Shown here: positions 39,273 through 60,963 of the stretch, piece by piece | Layout of the letters: every line of letters begins with the position of its first letter | Numbering within the stretch: position 1 is the first letter of the stretch | Source of the DNA: a virus | Taxonomy: Duplodnaviria > Heunggongvirae > Uroviricota > Caudoviricetes | Virus record (IMG/VR): IMGVR_UViG_3300021431_002946 | Coordinates: 225,291 to 289,290 of that record | Reading direction: 5' to 3' (one strand) | DNA: 64,000 nucleotides | Notes under the pieces: generated by a model | Seen by the model: only the letters and a program-made list of their open reading frames with translations | Database searches by the model: none | Told to the model about the DNA's origin: nothing | Made by a program: the position numbers and the translations under genes

Positions 39273-40697
39273 ATGATTAAGAATTTTGTAATAGATACTA
39301 ATGTATTAATGTCAAATCCTAATGCACTTTTTGGTTATGCAGATAATAGAGTTTTTCTTGTAGGAACTGTTCTTCAGGAACTTGATAAACATAAGAATGA
39401 TGAAGGTGAAAGAGGATTTAATGCTAGACAAGCAATAAAGAGCATTAATGCAGTTGTTTCTACTGCAATTAAAGATAAGACAGCAGAAGAAATAAGAAAA
39501 ATGTTGACTGTTGATGGTATTCCGCTTAATGATGAAGGTGGAGTTCTATTATTTGAACCTGATGGTGTAGATGAAAATTATTTGCCTAAAGGTTATTTGT
39601 TAGATAGAGCAGACAATAAGATTATTTCTTCTTGTATACATATGAATAAACAGTATTGTAAAGACAATAATGTTACTCTATTGACAGAAGATGCTGCAAT
39701 GTATTTAAATGCAATTAACTGCGGTGTAAAGTCAGAAAATATTAGAAATGAACAAATTGCATATACTGGATATTCAGGTCATGTAAATTTGCCTATTGCA
39801 AATGCAAATCATATAAATGAAATTTATAAGAAAAATTCAATTGAAGCAAAGAAAATTCCTGAAATAAAGAAATTAGATTATCCTTTATATGAGAACCAGT
39901 TTGTAACAATTACTTGTGGTAATCAGTCTGTTTTGACAGTTTATCAGAATGGAATGATTAATAAAATTCCTGAAGATCTTGGAATAAATGAGTATAAGAT
40001 TAAGCCTCTTAATAAAATGCAGAGATATGCAATTTGGGCTCTAACAAATCCTGCAATTCCTCTTGTAATTCTTGAAGGTCCAGCCGGTACAGCAAAAACT
40101 TTCTTATCAATGGCTGCAGGTCTTACTCAGCTTGATATAAGTAATGTTTATGGTAAGGATCTTTCTGAAAAGAATAGAAAAGAATTGTATGGTAGAATTC
40201 TTATATCTAGACCTAATAATAAAACGTCAGACGCAGACTTTGGTTATCTACCTGGCTCACTTGAAGAAAAGATGGGACCTCTAGTTGCATCTTATATGGA
40301 TAATCTTGAAGAAATTCTTGGTGATAAAGATACTCCAATAAAAGATACTAGAGCTACAATTGAAGATATGATGTATAGTAGATTAATTGAACTTTGTCCT
40401 CTTTATGCAATTAGAGGCAGATCAATTCATAATGCATATCTTATTTGCGATGAGTCTCAGAACGCAACAAAAAGTCTTATTAAAGACGTAGTTACAAGAG
40501 CAGGTAAGAATACTAAGATTGTAGTTGCAGGAGATCCAACTCAGATAGATAATACTGCACTTAGCATGCATAATAATGGTCTTGTTTATCTTAAGAATTG
40601 TATGAAAGGTGATCCTCTTTGTGCAATAATTAGATTTGAGAATGACAATTGTGTTAGAAGTGCTCTTGCTGAAAATGCTCTCAATCGTCTCAAGTAA
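39273..40697 (+). CDS. phoH: PhoH-family protein with N-terminal PIN domain
   Basis: VIDTNV, ADNKII, GPAGTAKT, IRGRSI, DESQN, GDPTQID, RSALA. Confidence 0.9.
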   Translation: MIKNFVIDTNVLMSNPNALFGYADNRVFLVGTVLQELDKHKNDEGERGFNARQAIKSINAVVSTAIKDKTAEEIRKMLTVDGIPLNDEGGVLLFEPDGVDENYLPKGYLLDRADNKIISSCIHMNKQYCKDNNVTLLTEDAAMYLNAINCGVKSENIRNEQIAYTGYSGHVNLPIANANHINEIYKKNSIEAKKIPEIKKLDYPLYENQFVTITCGNQSVLTVYQNGMINKIPEDLGINEYKIKPLNKMQRYAIWALTNPAIPLVILEGPAGTAKTFLSMAAGLTQLDISNVYGKDLSEKNRKELYGRILISRPNNKTSDADFGYLPGSLEEKMGPLVASYMDNLEEILGDKDTPIKDTRATIEDMMYSRLIELCPLYAIRGRSIHNAYLICDESQNATKSLIKDVVTRAGKNTKIVVAGDPTQIDNTALSMHNNGLVYLKNCMKGDPLCAIIRFENDNCVRSALAENALNRLK

Positions 40698-40844: not shown

Positions 40845-41624
40845 ATGAATAAAGAAGAATTCAAGCAAGCAATGCAATCACCAAAGAATGTATATTGTAT
40901 AGTTTCCTCTGATGCTAGAATGATTGATTTGTATAGAGATAGATTTAAAGCAGCAATAAAAGCAGATCAAATAGTATTTGGTCAGATACAAACTTCAGGT
41001 AAGTTATTTAAAAAGAAAACTTTAAATGTTATTTATATGCCAAAACTTGAAGAGTCTGTATTTGAAAGAAAAGAATATATTTTTATTCATACAGATTCAA
41101 TTGATAAAAGAACTGTTGCATATAAAAGATATAAGAATCAAATAATCATATTAGAAAATGATTATACTGATTATGTAATGAAGCATAGTAATATGAATGA
41201 AGATCAAGCTAAAGCATTTATAAAACAATGCGCAAATGATCTTGGTATTATTGAAAATGAACTTATGTTTTATAAAGAAGCTGGAATTCATTATAATAAT
41301 TATGAAAATAATATATATGGTTGGGTAGATAATTTCTTAAAAAGAGAGCCTTTACCTAGAACTACAGAATCAGAAATAAGTATAATGGCATTATTATCAA
41401 ATAATTGTCAAGATTTATTAAAAGTAAAACAAAATAATATAGATGGAATGGATCCATACAGAATTAAATGTATGAACGCAATGAAATCTTATAGAACTGA
41501 AGAAGAATTAAAAAATATGATAAAAGACTGTTTTTATTTAGATTGTCAAATAAAGAAAGGATTGTTAGACCCTAAATATACTATAGCATTTTTAAAGGAG
41601 AGATATTATGCCATTACCAATTAA
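40845..41624 (+). CDS. clamp loader delta-like subunit
   Basis: CANDLGIIENEL, DCFYLDCQIKKG pattern and replication-cluster context. Confidence 0.45.
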   Translation: MNKEEFKQAMQSPKNVYCIVSSDARMIDLYRDRFKAAIKADQIVFGQIQTSGKLFKKKTLNVIYMPKLEESVFERKEYIFIHTDSIDKRTVAYKRYKNQIIILENDYTDYVMKHSNMNEDQAKAFIKQCANDLGIIENELMFYKEAGIHYNNYENNIYGWVDNFLKREPLPRTTESEISIMALLSNNCQDLLKVKQNNIDGMDPYRIKCMNAMKSYRTEEELKNMIKDCFYLDCQIKKGLLDPKYTIAFLKERYYAITN

Positions 41625-43119
41625 CTTTTTGCCTGAAGTCAAGTCTAAACTTGATGATGCAGCATTAATAGAAAAACTAAAAAATGAAAAGAAAAAGAGT
41701 AAATTAAATTCAAATAATATTCTTGATATTATTGAAAAAATTAGACAAGATATTGATCAGCATCTTGCATATAGAAAAGATCAATTTGCTATTATTCGAA
41801 GACCAAGTGAATTAAAAGAATATATTAAGCAAGCAAATAAGTATGGTAAGATAGCAATCGATACTGAGACTACAGGTCTTAATCCTTTGGTTATTGATAT
41901 TATTGGTTTCAGTATGTATTTTCCTGGTGCTAAAGCTATTTATGTTCCTGTAAATCATGAAGATTATTTAACAGGAAATAAACTTATAGACCAGATGACT
42001 GAAGAACAATGTAAAGAATGTTTATCTGAATTAACTGCAGATGTAATAATGCATAATGCACAATTCGATATTAGAGTTATTTATCATACAATTGGTGTTA
42101 GATTAAAGTGTTGGTGGGATACGCAAGTTGCAGGTTTTCTTATTGATGAAAACGAATCTCATGGATTGAAAGATTTGCATAGTAAATATATCTCTCATGT
42201 AGTAGAAAAAACATTTAGTGGTTACTTTAAAAATATTAAATATCAGCAAGTTCCAGTTGAATTAGCATATCCTTATGCTGCAAACGACGCTATTGATACT
42301 TGGGAAATTTATGAGTACCAGTATAATAAAGCTGGATTAAATGAACAATCTGATATGTGGTGGTTATATAGAAATATTGAAATTCCAATGATCGATGTAA
42401 TTATTGCACTAGAAGATAATGGTGTATATATTGATATGGAATTTTTAGAGACTCTTAAAGAAAAATATCATGGTAAGCTCGATGAAGCACTTAATGGTTG
42501 TTATGATGAGATTGCAAAAATTCAAGGCACAATTGATACTTATATGCTCAATCATCCTGAATGCAAATTAAAGCAACCTATAAATATTGGTTCGACAACA
42601 CAACTTGCTATTTTATTTTATGATATTTTAGGTGTTAAACCTATTCAAGGTAAGAAACCAAGAGCTGTAGACGATGATGTTATGCAAGAATTAAAGAAGA
42701 AATATCCACTTGCTGCTAAAATTACAGATTATCGTAGCGCTATGAAAATGACTTCTACTTATATTGACAATATTCAAAATATTGTTCATACAGATGGTAG
42801 AGTTCATACTGGATTTAATTCAAATGGAGCAGCTACTGGTCGTATGAGTTCAAAAGAACCTCTTAATCTCCAAAATATTCCATCTAGAGGTCCAGCAAAG
42901 GAACTTAGAAGAATGTTTGCAGGCCAAACTACAGAACGTGAAGTAGAACTTAGATCTGATAATGCATATATTCTTGATAGATGTGAAGAAGTACAACTTC
43001 AAGATGGTACTTGGGTATGGGCAGAATTAGTTAAAGCTGGTGATGTTCTTGAAAGTGGAGAAGTTGTAAAAGCAGTAATTGTAAAAGAGTTTAAAGTTTT
43101 GATTGGAATTGAAACTTAA
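41608..43119 (+). CDS. polA: DNA polymerase family A, N-terminal piece (3'-5' exonuclease, thumb, part of palm)
   Basis: IAIDTETTGL, MHNAQFD, YAANDA, NIGSTTQLA, TGRMSS..PLNLQNIP; ends just before motif A. Confidence 0.9.
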   Translation: MPLPINFLPEVKSKLDDAALIEKLKNEKKKSKLNSNNILDIIEKIRQDIDQHLAYRKDQFAIIRRPSELKEYIKQANKYGKIAIDTETTGLNPLVIDIIGFSMYFPGAKAIYVPVNHEDYLTGNKLIDQMTEEQCKECLSELTADVIMHNAQFDIRVIYHTIGVRLKCWWDTQVAGFLIDENESHGLKDLHSKYISHVVEKTFSGYFKNIKYQQVPVELAYPYAANDAIDTWEIYEYQYNKAGLNEQSDMWWLYRNIEIPMIDVIIALEDNGVYIDMEFLETLKEKYHGKLDEALNGCYDEIAKIQGTIDTYMLNHPECKLKQPINIGSTTQLAILFYDILGVKPIQGKKPRAVDDDVMQELKKKYPLAAKITDYRSAMKMTSTYIDNIQNIVHTDGRVHTGFNSNGAATGRMSSKEPLNLQNIPSRGPAKELRRMFAGQTTEREVELRSDNAYILDRCEEVQLQDGTWVWAELVKAGDVLESGEVVKAVIVKEFKVLIGIET

Positions 43120-43165: not shown

Positions 43166-43405
43166 ATGGAGCAAGACGACAGTTTGTTAAGTAAGATAAC
43201 TAATACATTTTTTATTAGTTTATCTATACTTCAATATGTTTTTATTGCATTAAAATTTTTAAATATTATAAAGTGGTCGTGGTTTATAACACTTTTACCT
43301 ACTTTAATTCTAATAATATTTATAGTTTTAATTCTATTTGCAATATTATGTATATTAATTATAACAATGCTAATGAAAGTGAAAGGAGGAGTAAAGCATG
43401 ATTAA
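43166..43405 (+). CDS. small membrane protein between polymerase halves
   Basis: Two hydrophobic segments; KWSW motif. Confidence 0.65.
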   Translation: MEQDDSLLSKITNTFFISLSILQYVFIALKFLNIIKWSWFITLLPTLILIIFIVLILFAILCILIITMLMKVKGGVKHD

Positions 43406-44564
43406 AGCTAGAACTAGAAGAATTATTCAAGGTTCTGACTATTCAGCGCAAGAACCAAGACTTCTTTCTCAACTTTGTGCAGATCCTGGAATGTTACAGG
43501 CATATATGGATGGAAAAGATTTGTATGTAGAAATTTCATCAATTGCTTTCCATAGACCATATAAAAAATGTCTTGAACATTTTCCTAAAGGCTGTCCAAT
43601 TAAGAAAGATGCAGAAGATCATTGGGTTTATGCGTTATTAAAAGATGGTTCAGAAGATTCAATAGAAAATTTTGAGGATCTTCATAAGTACTTAGATGAA
43701 GATTTTAATCCTGAATTATATGATTACGATAAATTAGCTGATGGTGAAGTTGATGCTTTTGCAGAAGGTAAAGAATACCGTAGCCAAGCCAAACGTATAC
43801 TCTTAGGAATAATGTACGGCAGAGGTGCTAGATCAATTGCAGAACAATTATTTGGTACTCCTGAAAATAAAGCACAGGAGAGAGAAAATATTGATCAAGC
43901 ACAAAAAATTAAAGATGATGTGTATGATGCTTTTCCAAAGATTAAGGAATTTGAAGAAGCTTCAATTGAAATGGTTCAAAAATATGGATATGTTACTACT
44001 CTTTGGCTAAGACGTAGAAGACTTCCTGAATATAATTTAGAACCTATTCAAATTTTTTATGTTTGGTTAGATGCAGCAGGACAAGAAATTAAGAGAGAAA
44101 ATCTTGAGAAAGTAAATCCATCAAAATATAATGAAGTATTAACTGGTTATATGAATCAAAATTGGAATAATAGAGATAATTATGTTAATAAGTTATATAA
44201 TAATGAAGGTATTTTAATAATAAATAATAATAGTAAGATTGCAAGAGCAGGAAGACAAATTATTAACTCTCGAGTTCAAGGTTCTGCAGCAGATATGAGT
44301 AAGATGGCATTAATTAAAATTAATACTGATGAAGAACTTATTAAACGTGGAGTTAAAATCATCATTCCAGTTCATGATGAAATCTTAGTTGAAACACCTC
44401 TTAGATACGCAAAGTATGTAAAGGAAAGATTTGCTAATGATATGATGACTGCAGCTAGACCTAAATTAACAATTCCAGTTAGTTGTGATGTTGAATCTGC
44501 AGATAGATGGTATGGTGAACCTATGAACTTAGATGAAGAATTAAAAGGATTAGAAGGAGTATAA
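43398..44564 (+). CDS. polA: DNA polymerase family A, C-terminal piece (motifs A, B, C)
   Basis: GSDYSAQEPR, RSQAKRILLGIMYG, NSRVQGSAAD, VHDE. Confidence 0.9.
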   Translation: MIKARTRRIIQGSDYSAQEPRLLSQLCADPGMLQAYMDGKDLYVEISSIAFHRPYKKCLEHFPKGCPIKKDAEDHWVYALLKDGSEDSIENFEDLHKYLDEDFNPELYDYDKLADGEVDAFAEGKEYRSQAKRILLGIMYGRGARSIAEQLFGTPENKAQERENIDQAQKIKDDVYDAFPKIKEFEEASIEMVQKYGYVTTLWLRRRRLPEYNLEPIQIFYVWLDAAGQEIKRENLEKVNPSKYNEVLTGYMNQNWNNRDNYVNKLYNNEGILIINNNSKIARAGRQIINSRVQGSAADMSKMALIKINTDEELIKRGVKIIIPVHDEILVETPLRYAKYVKERFANDMMTAARPKLTIPVSCDVESADRWYGEPMNLDEELKGLEGV

Positions 44565-51537: not shown

Positions 51538-51673
51538 CGAAAGGCTATTTATACATACTAGAGATATAATGCGATTGTATCGGCGACATGAGTATTATAT
51601 GGCTAGTTATTATATATAAATTGCAATTATATATTGCCGAATATATGAAAGTATATTTATATATAATATAGCA

Positions 51674-51735
51674 AGTTGCATAAAAACTTCCTTATTACAT
51701 TTATAATATTCATGCAAACGTTAGTTTTCGCAACT
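51674..51735 (+). ncRNA. repeated structured RNA motif M, copy 1 of 5
   Basis: AGUUGC-AUAA-AAACU-UCCUUA...UU-AGUUU-UC-GCAACU. Confidence 0.65.
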
Positions 51736-51772
51736 TAAAATGAAAGGTTATTTATTAATATAAGGTGATAAT

Positions 51773-51925: not shown

Positions 51926-52004
51926 ACGAAAGGCTATTTATTAATATAGCTGGAAGGCTATAATAAAAAAACTAATTATACATTATATGAAAGGAGTAAA
52001 AGTC

Positions 52005-52379: not shown

Positions 52380-52440
52380 TCTTCTATAGCTTAATGGAAA
52401 AGCATAAAAGATGTAGGTTCGATTCCTGCTGGAAGATCCA
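52380..52440 (+). ncRNA. tRNA-like RNA lacking the anticodon arm
   Basis: Acceptor UCUUCUA/UGGAAGA plus UCCA, D-arm, 9-nt linker, T-arm. Confidence 0.65.
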
Positions 52441-52933: not shown

Positions 52934-53004
52934 ACTGTATAGTTTAAAATGGTAAAACGTTAGGCCTTTGCCTAAAGTTACAGGTTCGAATCCTGATTAC
53001 AGTA
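52934..53004 (+). pseudogene. degenerate tRNA (4-nt anticodon loop)
   Basis: D and T arms intact; UUAGGC-CUUU-GCCUAA. Confidence 0.5.
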
Positions 53005-53012
53005 ATTATTTT

Positions 53013-53088
53013 GGCTGAATAGCTCAGTTGGAAGAGCAGAGGACTGAAAATCCTTGTGTCACTGGTTCGATTCCAGTTTTAGCCACCA
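53013..53088 (+). tRNA. tRNA-Phe(GAA)
   Basis: Canonical cloverleaf, CCA. Confidence 0.95.
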
Positions 53089-53973: not shown

Positions 53974-53976
53974 ATA

Positions 53977-54040
53977 TTTTGCATACGAACTTCCTTATAT
54001 TATAACAACTGAAAATTGTTTTAAATTAGTTCTCGCAAAA
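53977..54040 (+). ncRNA. repeated structured RNA motif M, copy 2
   Basis: UUUUGC-AUAC-GAACU-UCCUUA...UU-AGUUC-UC-GCAAAA. Confidence 0.65.
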
Positions 54041-54059
54041 TTAAAAAAATTATTTATTT

Positions 54060-54118
54060 ATTCGCATATAGACTTCCTTATTTATAAGATTTTGGGTTCT
54101 TTTTTAGTCTTCGCGAAT
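54060..54118 (+). ncRNA. repeated structured RNA motif M, copy 3
   Basis: AUUCGC-AUAU-AGACU-UCCUUA...UU-AGUCU-UC-GCGAAU. Confidence 0.65.
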
Positions 54119-54123
54119 TATAT

Positions 54124-54923: not shown

Positions 54924-54927
54924 TAAT

Positions 54928-55010
54928 ATTTGCATAAAGACTTCCTTTATTTTCTGGTTCAACTCCAGAAACTTGTTAACAACGAGTTTCGGTATTTAGT
55001 CTTCGCAAAT
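54928..55010 (+). ncRNA. repeated structured RNA motif M, copy 4 (payload contains a T-loop hairpin)
   Basis: AUUUGC-AUAA-AGACU-UCCUUU...UU-AGUCU-UC-GCAAAU. Confidence 0.65.
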
Positions 55011-55015
55011 AATAT

Positions 55016-56123: not shown

Positions 56124-56199
56124 GTGCCAGTTGCTAAATGGTTTGGCGTGCAGTCTGCAAAATTGCATTTCATCGGTTCGAATCCGATCTGGCATTCCA
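56124..56199 (+). tRNA. tRNA-Cys(GCA)
   Basis: Cloverleaf, UCCA. Confidence 0.9.
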
Positions 56200-56200
56200 C

Positions 56201-56322
56201 TTCTTGCATAAGAACTTCCTTAGTTTCCAAGCCGTGGGTTGTAGGTTCGAGTCCTACCTTCCTCATTTTGAGGAAGTAGCTCAATGGTAGAGCAACAGTC
56301 TCCCCATTAGTTCCAGCAAGAA
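56201..56322 (+). ncRNA. motif M copy 5 enclosing a circularly permuted tRNA (Gly-like): 3' half 56222-56265, 5' half 56270-56306
   Basis: T-arm plus CUUCCUC-A precede GAGGAAG plus D-arm; flanks pair UUCUUGC/GCAAGAA and GAACU/AGUUC. Confidence 0.75.
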
Positions 56323-56328
56323 AATTAT

Positions 56329-56465
56329 AAGGATGTGGCGAAATAGGAAAACGCCGGATGTGACTCGTTCTGTATACATAAAAATATTTATTAAATATAC
56401 TAGTCAATTTAATACTTATGATATACAGTGTAGAATTGCAGGTTCAACTCCTGCCATCCTTACCA
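56329..56465 (+). ncRNA. tRNA-like RNA with large insert replacing anticodon arm
   Basis: Acceptor AAGGAUG/CAUCCUU plus ACCA, D-arm, T-arm. Confidence 0.6.
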
Positions 56466-59303: not shown

Positions 59304-59484
59304 GTAGAGGCGTGCTGATAAATTCAGCGTGCGGGTTCGAATCCCGTCTACTTCATCAAATATGGTTGAGTTTCGTAGGTAGTAACGAGCCTGATGAAGT
59401 TCAGGTACGGCGGCAGGTGCAAATCCTCCCCAACCACCAAAAATGAAGTAGTGGTGAAACGGCAAACACCGCCTCGTTCCCAAA
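59304..59484 (+). ncRNA. candidate circularly permuted class II tRNA: 3' half 59304-59355, 5' half 59445-59484
   Basis: GAAGUAG/CUACUUC acceptor and GCCUC/GAGGC anticodon stem form only across the permuted halves. Confidence 0.55.
59364..59439 (+). pseudogene. atypical tRNA-like element nested between the permuted halves
   Basis: GGUUG/CAACC plus ACCA, D-arm, CCUGA/UCAGG with 6-nt loop, T-loop UGCAAAU. Confidence 0.5.
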
Positions 59485-60378: not shown

Positions 60379-60963
60379 ATGAAAAATATATTTGCTTACA
60401 ATAAATCAGATATAGATGATGATGGAAAATTATATCAAAAATATCTTAATAAAGGTATTAATTCTAGAAAAGAAAATATTAAATTTGATTTAACTTTTGA
60501 AGAATTTATATTTTTAGTGAGAGACGCAAAATTAAAGTCTTCTCAATTAGGATATACTGGTGAAAAATATGTATTAGCTAGATATGGTGATAAAGGTGGT
60601 TATACAGTAGATAATTGTCGTTTTATTACTCAAAAAGAAAATGCAGCTGAAAAAGTTGTAACTGAAAAATCAAGAAGAGCAAGTAGAATGAATGTAAGAT
60701 CTGCATTTCAAGCAGCTGTACAAGATCCTTTATATAGACAGAAAGTTTCTGCTGGAATTAGAAAAAGTGAATCATATAAAATAAGAGCTGAAAAAGCAAA
60801 ATTAAGAAAAGAATTATATGATGCTACAAAAGATAAAAGGTATTCTGGTGAGCATAATTCTCAAACTGGAACCTTTTGGATTACAAATGGAAATATAAAT
60901 AAAAAATGGAGACCTAGTAAAGGTGAATTACCTGAAGGTTTTTATAAAGGTAGAGTTATGTAA
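60379..60963 (+). CDS. free-standing HNH-like endonuclease
   Basis: LARYGDKGGYTVDNCRFITQKEN; C-terminal FWITNG...PEGFYKGR module. Confidence 0.65.
   Translation: MKNIFAYNKSDIDDDGKLYQKYLNKGINSRKENIKFDLTFEEFIFLVRDAKLKSSQLGYTGEKYVLARYGDKGGYTVDNCRFITQKENAAEKVVTEKSRRASRMNVRSAFQAAVQDPLYRQKVSAGIRKSESYKIRAEKAKLRKELYDATKDKRYSGEHNSQTGTFWITNGNINKKWRPSKGELPEGFYKGRVM

What the first reader, a model, noticed from the sequence alone, without database searches (positions are those of the whole stretch)
56201..56322. Circularly permuted tRNA gene in a bacteriophage
Seen: order is [UUUCCAA-GCCGU, variable loop, T-arm GUAGG-UUCGAGU-CCUAC, CUUCCUC-A]-UUUU-[GAGGAAG, D-arm GCUC-AAUGGUA-GAGC, ACAGU-CUCCCCA]. The 3' half precedes the 5' half, the acceptor stem closes as a hairpin, the break lies in the anticodon loop, and the outer flanks pair as motif M. 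Body is Gly-like (UCC or CCC after joining), though A73 and a 3/5-WC anticodon stem are atypical. Established: permuted tRNA genes are known from algae, nucleomorphs and an archaeon, matured through a circular intermediate. I know of no phage example, but have not searched.
Basis: partly seen in the sequence, partly recalled or inferred. Interest (0 to 1): 0.88.

Follow-up and report, generated by a model that had tools for sequence, protein, structure and literature searches.

The report
Phage tRNA mimic with swapped halves
The stretch really encodes a tRNA-shaped RNA whose two halves lie in swapped order, but its relatives show it is the tRNA-like head of a widespread, uncatalogued family of small phage RNAs that share a hairpin 'handle' and travel with one unknown protein. 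It is therefore more likely a tRNA mimic, like bacterial Y RNAs, than a gene for a working tRNA.

Summary
Observation confirmed. Window 56201-56322 (+) holds, in order, an anticodon-stem 3' strand, variable loop, T-arm, a 7-bp acceptor stem closed by A-UUUU, a D-arm and the anticodon-stem 5' strand, clamped by pairing flanks. Un-permuted in silico, ARAGORN calls it tRNA-Gly. It is not decay. Sixteen distinct elements with this wiring occur in other phage and Clostridia contigs. In an alignment of 11 of them, 95.7% of cells are paired and 24 of 32 pairs change on both sides.

The clamp is a conserved handle: 7-bp stem, AUAN/YC loop, 4-bp helix, UUCCUUA...UUA. It has 7 copies in this 467-kb phage and about 55 in the fetched loci. 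Its payloads range from filler to T-arms, anticodon-arm look-alikes and one ordinary tRNA. Handle arrays sit directly upstream of a helical+TerD-domain protein in 9 of 9 loci holding that gene, including this phage.

The permuted-tRNA-gene reading is only partly supported. There is no BHB motif, splicing endonuclease or RNA ligase, and the supposed anticodon changes (UCC to UUU) in a 96%-identical ortholog. Best reading: a Y-RNA-like (YrlA-type) tRNA mimic with a different handle and partner.

This scan has found the same RNA-protein pair before on other DNA.

The parts
56201..56207 (+). Handle, outer stem 5' strand (UUCUUGC). It starts 2 nt after tRNA-Cys (56124-56199).
   Evidence: Pairs 7/7 with 56316-56322. 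Six of the 7 pairs change on both sides across 11 homologues.
56208..56222 (+). Handle core, 5' side: internal loop AUAA, inner helix GAAC, conserved UUCCUUA.
   Evidence: In 57 collected instances A-U-A-N is nearly invariant and UUCCU invariant. The 4-bp helix is always paired and covaries.
56223..56230 (+).
   Evidence: Not conserved: 2 substitutions and 1 insertion in L110, which is 96% identical overall. Length is 6-15 nt in other homologues.
56231..56240 (+). Anticodon-stem 3' strand (GCCGU) and 5-nt variable loop (GGGUU).
   Evidence: The stem is perfect in L110 through C56233U and U56299C. U48 pairs with A15 (Levitt pair), which covaries in the family: A-U 8, G-C 6, U-A 1.
56241..56257 (+). 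T-arm (GUAGG UUCGAGU CCUAC).
   Evidence: 100% of cells paired; G53 U54 U55 C56 A58 C61 invariant in A2.
56258..56276 (+). Acceptor stem closed as a hairpin: CUUCCUC, A73, UUUU, GAGGAAG.
   Evidence: 7/7 pairs; 100% paired in 11 homologues with 6 of 7 pairs compensatory. The loop reads A-CCA-U in ortholog L106, and N73-CCA is present in 6 of 17 rows (4 lineages).
56277..56294 (+). U8 A9, D-arm (GCUC AAUGGUA GAGC), A26.
   Evidence: The Rfam YrlA model aligns T-arm, closed stem and D-arm at 56234-56296 (39.6 bits).
56295..56306 (+). Anticodon-stem 5' strand (ACAGU) and 3' junction strand (CUCCCCA).
   Evidence: The junction starts with CU in most homologues, but its sequence and length otherwise vary.
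56307..56322 (+). Handle, 3' side: UUA, inner helix GUUC, loop CA, outer stem GCAAGAA.
51673..51736 (+). Handle copy 1 (AU-rich payload), just after a promoter-like site and upstream of a small ORF.
53976..54041 (+). Handle copy 2; payload includes an anticodon-arm look-alike (AACAA CUGAAAA UUGUU).
54059..54119 (+). Handle copy 3 (short payload with GGGUUC).
   Evidence: ortholog at L106:3561-3624.
54927..55011 (+). Handle copy 4; payload is a T-arm-like hairpin plus a second hairpin.
   Evidence: orthologs at L106:4548-4633 and L101:121-201.

Best explanation
Window 56201-56322 encodes one roughly 122-nt member of an uncatalogued family of small structured RNAs. Phages of gut and rumen Clostridia, and some Clostridia themselves, carry these RNAs inside tRNA operons and directly upstream of a conserved 620-710-aa protein with a helical N-domain and a TerD domain.

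All members share a terminal handle: a 7-bp stem, an A-U-A-N / Y-C internal loop, a 4-bp purine/pyrimidine helix, and UUCCUUA ... UUA. The apical payload varies. Here it is a whole tRNA body wired in permuted order: the acceptor stem is closed by a 5-nt loop, and the anticodon stem opens into the handle instead of into an anticodon loop. This is the topology of YrlA-type Y RNAs and of permuted tmRNA genes.

Shown: the structure, its conservation and covariation, the family, and the gene linkage.

Inferred biogenesis: the RNA is released from the tRNA polycistron when its neighbours are processed. The acceptor loop (A73-UUUU before G+1; A73-CCA-U before G+1 in an ortholog) looks like a pre-tRNA trailer/leader junction. 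It is probably opened by RNase P and RNase Z, then given CCA; the phage encodes a CCA-adding enzyme. The product would be a two-piece L-shaped RNA held together by the acceptor stem and the handle.

Inferred function: the handle binds the TerD-domain protein. The tRNA-shaped head then acts as a tRNA mimic, either a decoy or an adaptor for enzymes or host nucleases that recognise tRNA. It does not act as a decoding tRNA.
For: Structure and tRNA-likeness.

Rfam: the YrlA model (T-arm, closed acceptor-like stem, D-arm) hits this element at 39.6 bits, E 5.6e-8 for the genome. The next-best hit in the genome is 22.4 bits, on a tandem tRNA pair. The model also hits six other permuted elements at 34-42 bits.

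Conservation: 16 distinct permuted elements inside the same handle, found in metagenome, viral and genome contigs. In an alignment of 11 of them, 95.7% of cells pair against 72.6% in shuffles and 40-48% with slid partners, and 24 of 32 pairs change on both sides. G.U pairs place the structure on the tRNA-sense strand. The Levitt 15-48 pair covaries. Against the two close orthologs (96% and 91% identity) there are 18 differences. All 5 that fall in stems keep or improve pairing.

The handle is an independent module: 7 copies in this genome and about 55 in the loci, with payloads from filler to T-arms, anticodon-arm look-alikes and one normal tRNA-Met.

Partner gene: a homologue of the 622-aa protein lies directly downstream of handle arrays, on the same strand, in 9 of 9 loci that hold the gene. 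In this phage the gene is G000:314980-316848, 90 nt after handle copies 6 and 7. In one locus the context is chromosomal, in a Lachnospiraceae isolate.

Acceptor end: N73-CCA sits exactly at the start of the loop in 4 lineages. There is a UUU-to-CCA switch between orthologs. U is at -1 in most elements. The phage encodes a CCA-adding enzyme. M. smegmatis YrlA is cut by RNase P in the same loop and receives CCA (PMC4201824).
Against: Binding of the handle to the TerD-domain protein rests on gene linkage only. The protein has no known RNA-binding domain, and my fold searches found only a TerD domain plus an unassigned helical repeat. Several family members keep an intact, canonical-looking anticodon arm (C-U-NNN-A-A) and an encoded CCA, which would also suit working two-piece or spliced tRNAs. 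In this element the junction strands begin with CU and end with AA, like positions 32-33 and 37-38 of a tRNA.
Confidence: 0.6

Rival explanations
1. A genuine circularly permuted tRNA gene. An endonuclease cuts in the two junction strands next to the handle, and a ligase (host RtcB, for example) joins them. RNase P, RNase Z and CCA addition open the acceptor loop. The result is a decoding tRNA with loop CU+UCC+AA, i.e. Gly(UCC).
For: The permuted order has a perfect acceptor stem and an intact tRNA core. The 3' junction strand starts with CU and the 5' junction strand ends with NNN-A-A in most homologues. Family members have the break at other positions (about 27/28) with whole anticodon arms, as in algal permuted tRNAs whose break points differ (PMC4090602). 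The handle has a central helix of exactly 4 bp, with unpaired bases 5' of each strand. A Lachnospiraceae genome that carries the family encodes RtcB.
Against: The handle is not a BHB: it has a 4x2 internal loop on one side and a large loop on the other (definition in PMC4090602). The phage has no tRNA splicing endonuclease, RtcB, Rnl1 or PF09414 ligase. Cutting at the handle itself would leave a loop of about 30 nt. The triplet changes from UCC to UUU, with an insertion, in a 96%-identical ortholog, and from AUG to UUG between L096 and L105. The phage already has ordinary tRNA-Gly(UCC) and three tRNA-Lys(UUU). The same handle holds payloads that cannot become tRNAs. A73 with A2-U71 is not the bacterial GlyRS identity set (own knowledge).
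Confidence: 0.1
2. A two-piece tRNA-like RNA that is aminoacylated after RNase P and CCA maturation and donates its amino acid without any joining of the anticodon side. It could act in translation, in a tmRNA-like rescue step, or in another aminoacyl-transfer reaction.
For: Encoded N73-CCA in four lineages and a perfect 7-bp acceptor stem. Two-piece tmRNAs from permuted genes show that bacteria make and use such split tRNA-like molecules (PMC11915505). The phage has its own CCA-adding enzyme.
Against: No recognisable identity set: G3-C70 rules out alanine, and A73 with A2-U71 does not fit bacterial Gly. No tag reading frame or pseudoknots. The tmRNA and permuted-tmRNA models do not hit the element. 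In this element the anticodon loop is open and variable.
Confidence: 0.1
3. A cis-acting piece of the tRNA operon with no trans function. It would be a structured spacer that organises folding or processing of the polycistronic precursor, or protects it from exonucleases, and is built from recycled tRNA parts.
For: All copies lie between tRNAs on the tRNA strand, 1-6 nt from their neighbours. Payloads are very diverse, which fits a weak constraint on the apical part.
Against: The tRNA core of the payload is strongly constrained, with tertiary nucleotides invariant and covarying stems. Handle arrays also occur away from tRNAs, as leaders of the TerD-domain protein gene in a bacterial chromosome with no tRNA within 8 kb. 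The invariant single-stranded UUCCU and AUA point to a specific ligand.
Confidence: 0.12
4. Debris: the remnant of two tandem isoacceptor tRNA genes that lost their outer halves, without function.
For: Tandem tRNAs with matching acceptor stems are common in phage arrays and give the same local pattern. Chen et al. note dimeric tRNAs as false positives of YrlA models.
Against: No remnants of the missing halves; the flanks are the conserved handle. The arrangement is kept with compensatory changes in 16 elements from many contigs. No stem-breaking change appears in the two close orthologs.
Confidence: 0.03

Closest known systems
YrlA-type bacterial and phage Y RNAs (Rfam RF02553; Chen et al. 2014, PMC4201824)
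   Same: Same topology: two stacked helices formed by the 5' and 3' ends, then a short stem standing in for the anticodon stem, variable region, T-arm, a closed acceptor-like hairpin and a D-arm, with the tRNA tertiary nucleotides kept. Encoded on the same strand as, and next to, a large partner protein. Found in phages that carry many tRNAs. M. smegmatis YrlA is cut by RNase P in the acceptor loop and receives CCA. A tRNA-less sister RNA (YrlB) shares the protein-binding part, as the simpler handle RNAs do here.
   Different: The score is 39.6 bits against a gathering score of 69, and only the tRNA-like middle aligns. The Rsr-binding motif GNCGAAN0-1G is absent; the handle has GC-AUAN-4bp-UUCCUUA instead. 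There is no TROVE/Ro60 gene in the phage or in three genomes that carry the family. The linked protein is a helical+TerD-domain protein.
Circularly permuted tRNA genes of Cyanidioschyzon merolae, other algae, nucleomorphs and an archaeon (Soma et al. 2007; reviewed in PMC4090602)
   Same: The 3' half lies upstream of the 5' half, and the acceptor ends are bridged by a short linker. Leader and trailer pair with each other. Break points differ between family members.
   Different: Those genes rely on a BHB motif, the tRNA splicing endonuclease, a ligase and a circular intermediate, and they give a conserved anticodon. Here the BHB is not met, the enzymes were not found in the phage, and the anticodon-like triplet is not conserved.
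Two-piece tmRNA from circularly permuted ssrA genes (alpha- and beta-proteobacteria, cyanobacteria, mitochondria; PMC11915505)
   Same: A bacterial precedent for a permuted tRNA-like gene whose transcript is cut by tRNA-processing enzymes at the acceptor loop and stays together by base pairing.
   Different: tmRNA has G3-U70, a D-loop without a stem, a tag reading frame and pseudoknots, and it works with SmpB. None of these is present here, and the tmRNA models do not hit.
Handle RNA plus helical/TerD protein pair noted earlier by this scan on other DNA (for example e1-5344637, e1-3748123, e1-1835519)
   Same: Same plan: tandem small hairpin RNAs with a conserved handle, absent from Rfam, beside one uncharacterised protein of about 600-700 aa with a TerD domain.
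   Different: Those are unchecked AI notes on other genomes. I confirmed the pair independently for this phage and eight other loci. I could not reproduce the Ro60-like fold they report for the N-terminal domain.

Membership tests
Circularly permuted tRNA gene (Cyanidioschyzon type) | 3' half upstream of 5' half, acceptor ends bridged by a short linker, halves reconstitute a cloverleaf | tested here: met
   After swapping the halves, ARAGORN calls a 72-nt tRNA-Gly with a 7/7 acceptor stem.
Circularly permuted tRNA gene (Cyanidioschyzon type) | Leader and trailer form a bulge-helix-bulge motif (4-bp helix flanked by two 3-nt bulges on opposite strands) | tested here: not met
   A 4-bp helix is present. 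It is flanked by a 4x2 internal loop (AUAN/YC) on one side and by a loop of at least 10 and 8 nt on the other. Definition from PMC4090602.
Circularly permuted tRNA gene (Cyanidioschyzon type) | tRNA splicing endonuclease and RNA ligase available | tested here: inconclusive
   PF01974, PF01139, PF09414 and PF09511 are absent from the 467-kb phage (the PF09511 control rang nowhere). The host is unknown. RtcB is present in one Lachnospiraceae genome that carries the family.
Circularly permuted tRNA gene (Cyanidioschyzon type) | Joined product has a 7-nt anticodon loop with an anticodon conserved among orthologs | tested here: not met
   UCC becomes UUU with a 1-nt insertion in L110 (96% identity). 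AUG versus UUG in L096 and L105. Junction lengths are 5-15 nt.
Circularly permuted tRNA gene (Cyanidioschyzon type) | Circular intermediate and mature joined tRNA detected | not testable with these tools
YrlA / Y RNA-like (Rfam RF02553) | tRNA-like domain in the order T-arm, closed acceptor-like stem, D-arm, with the tRNA tertiary nucleotides | tested here: met
   Model positions 24-84 align at 56234-56296, 39.6 bits, E 2.5e-7. Six homologues score 34-42 bits.
YrlA / Y RNA-like (Rfam RF02553) | Reaches the family's gathering score (69 bits) | tested here: not met
   39.6 bits.
YrlA / Y RNA-like (Rfam RF02553) | GNCGAAN0-1G Ro/Rsr-binding motif near the 5' end | tested here: not met
   The handle reads (G)C-A-U-A-N-RRRS-UUCCUU. 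The YrlA consensus acggCgaAUGC is not matched. Motif as defined in PMC4201824.
YrlA / Y RNA-like (Rfam RF02553) | Encoded next to a Ro60/Rsr (TROVE) gene | tested here: not met
   No PF05731 match in the phage or in three genomes carrying the family.
Permuted (two-piece) tmRNA | G3-U70, D-loop without stem, tag reading frame, hit by the tmRNA models | tested here: not met
   G3-C70 and a normal D-stem. RF00023 and RF04321 are in the library and do not hit the element.
Handle RNA with helical/TerD-domain partner (uncatalogued; seen by this scan) | Handle consensus with covarying outer and inner helices | tested here: met
Handle RNA with helical/TerD-domain partner (uncatalogued; seen by this scan) | Partner gene in the same genome, with handle RNAs directly upstream on the same strand | tested here: met
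   G000:314980-316848 lies 90 nt after handle copies 6 and 7. The same holds in 8 other loci. The element studied here lies about 33 kb upstream of that gene, in the main tRNA array.
Handle RNA with helical/TerD-domain partner (uncatalogued; seen by this scan) | Partner protein has a Ro60-like ring (claimed in earlier notes) | tested here: inconclusive
   The TerD domain is clear: Foldseek probability 1.0, and VIA Z 8.1 with 132 residues aligned at rmsd 3.2 to 2qz7_B. The N-domain gives only generic helical-repeat matches with Z below 8, and Ro60 is not listed.

The most novel reading that the evidence does not exclude
The handle is the recognition signal of an unknown cut-and-join RNA-processing pathway in phages of Clostridia, possibly run by the linked TerD-domain protein together with host RtcB. 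In that case the handle-clamped elements with swapped halves, including this one, would be true permuted or split tRNA genes that mature into decoding tRNAs. They would be the first such genes outside eukaryotes and archaea, and a bacterial counterpart of BHB splicing.
Probability: 0.08. Interest if true: 0.95.

Novelty: new variant of a known kind. Interest (0 to 1): 0.68.

Why it matters
Two kinds of tRNA mimic tied to a protein-binding stem are known in bacteria: YrlA with Ro60, and tmRNA with SmpB. This element shows the same design built on a different handle and linked to a different, unstudied protein family. That family has 786 homologues at E <= 1e-5, mostly viral. The element sits in the middle of a 53-gene phage tRNA array.

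The family offers a graded series of payloads: whole tRNA, permuted tRNA with or without an anticodon arm, acceptor/T minihelix, lone T-arm, and anticodon-arm look-alikes. The series can be used to ask what the partner or the targeted host factor recognises. If the RNAs are decoys or adaptors for tRNA-targeting defence or repair, they add a new layer to the tRNA arms race between phages and hosts. If they turn out to be spliced, bacteria-infecting viruses would have permuted tRNA genes.

For annotation, the result warns that such elements are missed by tRNA finders and fall below Rfam thresholds.

Tried and rejected
Searches that found no relatives:
- Exact 50-mer of the element in viral contigs: none.
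- Two strict handle patterns in viral contigs: none. They were too strict; the looser T-arm pattern later worked.
- Relatives through two window proteins in viral contigs: none.
- blastn against GenBank phages: only generic tRNA matches.

Relatives that lacked the element:
- Relatives found through the array ORF 60379-60963 have tRNA arrays but no handle or compact permuted element.

Rfam:
- Scans at relaxed E-values give no family for the handle itself.
- The Rfam tRNA hit at 56270-56462 is a chimera of this element's 5' half with the 3' half of the next tRNA-like RNA.
- The weak YrlA hits at window 52948-53066 and G000:314564 are tandem-tRNA false positives.

Ideas considered and dropped:
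- A BHB reading of the handle, a k-turn reading of AUAN/YC (no G.A pairs), and alternative pairing of UUCCUU with the acceptor 5' strand (not conserved in L107 or L098) were all dropped.
- RtcB in Lachnospiraceae G001 is not shown to be adjacent to the handle locus.

Partner protein:
- Ro60 did not appear in Foldseek PDB, AFDB clusters or Swiss-Prot searches, or in VIA wide searches of the partner protein or its N-domain.
- Botulinum-toxin rows in those lists have TM about 0.1 and are noise.
- A profile search of the N-domain against PDB sequences and Pfam gave nothing.

Full report
WHAT IS THERE. The window comes from a complete 467,383-bp phage genome with terminal repeats. From 52.8 kb onward the window is a tRNA array: 53 genes by ARAGORN, all on the + strand. 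No tRNA is called between tRNA-Cys (56124-56199) and an odd tRNA-like RNA at 56329-56465.

- an outer 7-bp stem (56201-07 with 56316-22);
- then AUAA, GAAC, UUCCUUA;
- an 8-nt junction strand;
- GCCGU, a 5-nt variable loop, a T-arm;
- CUUCCUC-A-UUUU-GAGGAAG as a closed acceptor hairpin;
- UA, a D-arm, A, ACAGU;
- a 7-nt junction strand;
- then UUA, GUUC, CA and the outer stem.

If the two halves are swapped in silico, ARAGORN calls a 72-nt tRNA-Gly. All nucleotides that build the tRNA elbow and core are present. The body is no recent copy of a resident tRNA: the best match is 55 of 72 identities. A purpose-written scanner finds this arrangement with a 7/7 acceptor hairpin only twice in the genome.

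NOT CHANCE, NOT DECAY. A scan of public metagenome contigs used the 5' handle motif followed by a T-loop and gave 17 loci. The same pattern found 7 genome contigs and 4 viral contigs. After removing a few ordinary tRNAs, these loci hold about 55 distinct handle instances. Sixteen of them are distinct elements with the same permuted wiring, and 14 have 7/7 acceptor pairs.

Two are close orthologs in syntenic arrays: L110 (96% identical over 331 nt) and L106 (91%). The others differ in almost every stem position yet stay paired.

On an alignment of 11 elements, 95.7% of cells form standard pairs. Column shuffles give 72.6%, and sliding the partners gives 40-48%. Twenty-four of 32 pairs show changes on both sides, and the acceptor hairpin is paired in every sequence. 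G.U pairs show the structure belongs to the tRNA-sense strand. The tertiary Levitt pair 15-48 also covaries: A-U 8, G-C 6, U-A 1, and one A.C. Of 18 differences between this element and its two close orthologs, the five in stems all keep or improve pairing.

THE CLAMP IS A MODULE OF ITS OWN. The flanks are a conserved handle with consensus (G)C / A-U-A-N / 4 bp (purine strand 5') / UUCCU(U/A)(A/U) ... (U/A)UA / 4 bp / Y-C / G(C). Its two helices covary and it has invariant single-stranded A, A and UUCCU.

This genome has seven copies. Five are in the window, against 0.00 expected. Two more follow tRNA-Gln and tRNA-Lys at G000:314752-314890.

Payloads fall into classes:
- AU-rich filler;
- a short GGUUC-containing segment;
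- a GC hairpin plus an anticodon-arm look-alike (AACAA C-U-NNN-A-A UUGUU);
- a T-arm with a second hairpin;
- a T-arm plus acceptor minihelix ending in GCCA;
- permuted tRNA bodies broken in the anticodon loop (as here), or broken at about 27/28 with an intact anticodon arm;
- in L107 and L113, a complete ordinary tRNA-Met with CCA.

No Rfam family matches the handle.

A LINKED PROTEIN. In the genome of a Lachnospiraceae isolate, three tandem handle RNAs lie in ordinary chromosomal surroundings, directly upstream of a 712-aa ORF with no Pfam family. One of the three has a permuted tRNA-like payload. The phage encodes a homologue (E 5e-41) at G000:314980-316848, 90 nt downstream of handle copies 6 and 7.

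By tblastn, a homologue follows a handle array on the same strand in all nine loci that hold the gene. Some share one promoter, with only 20-35 nt between the last RNA and the start codon.

The family is large (786 proteins at E <= 1e-5) and mostly viral. It has no Pfam, NCBIfam or PDB sequence relative. The AlphaFold model (pLDDT 86, pTM 0.84) shows a helical-repeat N-domain of about 375 residues. It also shows a TerD beta-sandwich at about 400-570: Foldseek probability 1.0 to TerD structures, and VIA Z 8.1 with 132 residues at rmsd 3.2.

After I had found this linkage, the scan's notebook showed that other agents had met the same RNA-protein pair on other DNA and called the N-domain Ro60-like. 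I confirm the pair. I could not reproduce the Ro60 similarity, and I treat it as open.

IS IT A PERMUTED tRNA GENE? Known permuted tRNA genes are defined by three things: a BHB motif formed by leader and trailer, cleavage by the splicing endonuclease, and ligation through a circle (PMC4090602).

Here the central helix has 4 bp. It is flanked by a 4x2 internal loop and a large open loop, not by 3-nt bulges. The phage has no splicing endonuclease, RtcB, Rnl1 or PF09414 ligase. Cutting at the handle would leave a loop of about 30 nt.

The junction strands, which would have to supply the anticodon, are the fastest-changing part. UCC becomes UUU with an inserted base in the 96%-identical L110. L096 and L105 differ by an indel there. 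Junction lengths range from 5 to 15 nt. The phage already has tRNA-Gly(UCC).

Some points remain in favour. The 3' junction strand starts with CU and the 5' junction strand usually ends with AA. Some relatives keep whole anticodon arms. Four lineages encode N73-CCA. I therefore keep this reading at about 0.1, and a two-piece charged RNA at about 0.1.

MOST LIKELY MECHANISM. The topology is that of YrlA Y RNAs. The Rfam YrlA model aligns the T-arm, closed stem and D-arm at 39.6 bits, well above the next-best hit in the genome but below the family threshold of 69. It does the same for six homologues. The YrlA consensus also has two stacked helices below the tRNA-like domain.

The defining Ro-binding motif and the Ro60 gene are absent. 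This is therefore not a YrlA member but an RNA that works on the same plan.

The acceptor loop looks like a pre-tRNA trailer/leader junction: U at -1, G at +1, a U-rich trailer here, and A-CCA-U in the ortholog L106. M. smegmatis YrlA is cut there by RNase P and receives CCA (PMC4201824). Two-piece tmRNAs arise the same way (PMC11915505). The phage has a CCA-adding enzyme.

From this I infer three steps:
- release from the polycistron by the processing of neighbouring tRNAs;
- probable opening of the acceptor loop;
- a stable L-shaped RNA whose handle binds the TerD-domain protein and whose head imitates tRNA.

What the mimic is for is not shown. It could be a decoy for tRNA-directed host nucleases or modifiers, or an adaptor that brings tRNA enzymes or damaged tRNAs to the protein.

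LIMITS. Protein-RNA binding is inferred from linkage alone. The host is inferred only from carriers of the family: a Clostridia MAG, a goat-colon bacterium and a Lachnospiraceae isolate.

Noticed in passing
window 59304-59484: A second permuted arrangement. T-arm and CUACUUC-A lie upstream of GAAGUAG plus a D-arm (7/7 acceptor pairs). The 90-nt 'loop' itself holds a tRNA-like RNA ending in CCA. It is flanked by other hairpin elements, not by the handle. No homologue appeared in the fetched loci apart from the flanking hairpin in L009.
   Followed up: partly
window 56329-56465: A tRNA-shaped RNA with a paired acceptor stem (AAGGAUG/CAUCCUU), D- and T-arms and encoded ACCA. About 80 nt replace the anticodon arm. 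Rfam's tRNA hit at 56270-56462 is a chimera with it. It is conserved in L106 and L110.
   Followed up: partly
window 52380-52437: A 58-nt Rfam tRNA hit (45.6 bits) that ARAGORN does not call.
   Followed up: no
L107:1267-1385 and L113:2708-2829: A complete, normal-order tRNA-Met(CAU) with encoded CCA lies inside a handle. Here the handle pairs the leader with the trailer of an ordinary pre-tRNA.
   Followed up: partly
L126:3391-3897 (G000 about 316948-317454): The gene right after the phage's TerD-domain protein is a PF04308 RNase H-like protein (E 8e-47).
   Followed up: no
L105:2504-2949: A sub-threshold GOLLD RNA match (99 bits, gathering score 150) inside a related phage tRNA array that also carries handle RNAs. 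L120 has a tmRNA in its array.
   Followed up: no
window 60379-60963: A 194-aa ORF without a Pfam family sits inside the tRNA array. Its homologues (56 at E <= 1e-3; 276 tblastn-confirmed relatives in IMG/VR) also lie within or beside tRNA arrays of many other phages. In one 74%-identical relative an RNA ligase (PF09414) lies 1.6 kb upstream.
   Followed up: partly
window 41608-43119 and 43398-44564: Family A DNA polymerase is split into two ORFs (exonuclease plus the start of the polymerase; the rest of the polymerase), separated by about 280 nt.
   Followed up: no
window 39273-40697: A PIN domain is fused to a PhoH-like ATPase (474 aa), a possible RNA-processing enzyme about 12 kb upstream of the tRNA array.
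   Followed up: no
window 51640-51670, 51930-51965; L003 1378-1410: A recurring AT-rich motif (GAAAGTATATTTA ... TATAAT-like) stands before handle copy 1, before small ORFs and before the tRNA-Gln/Lys unit. It is probably this phage's own promoter type.
   Followed up: no
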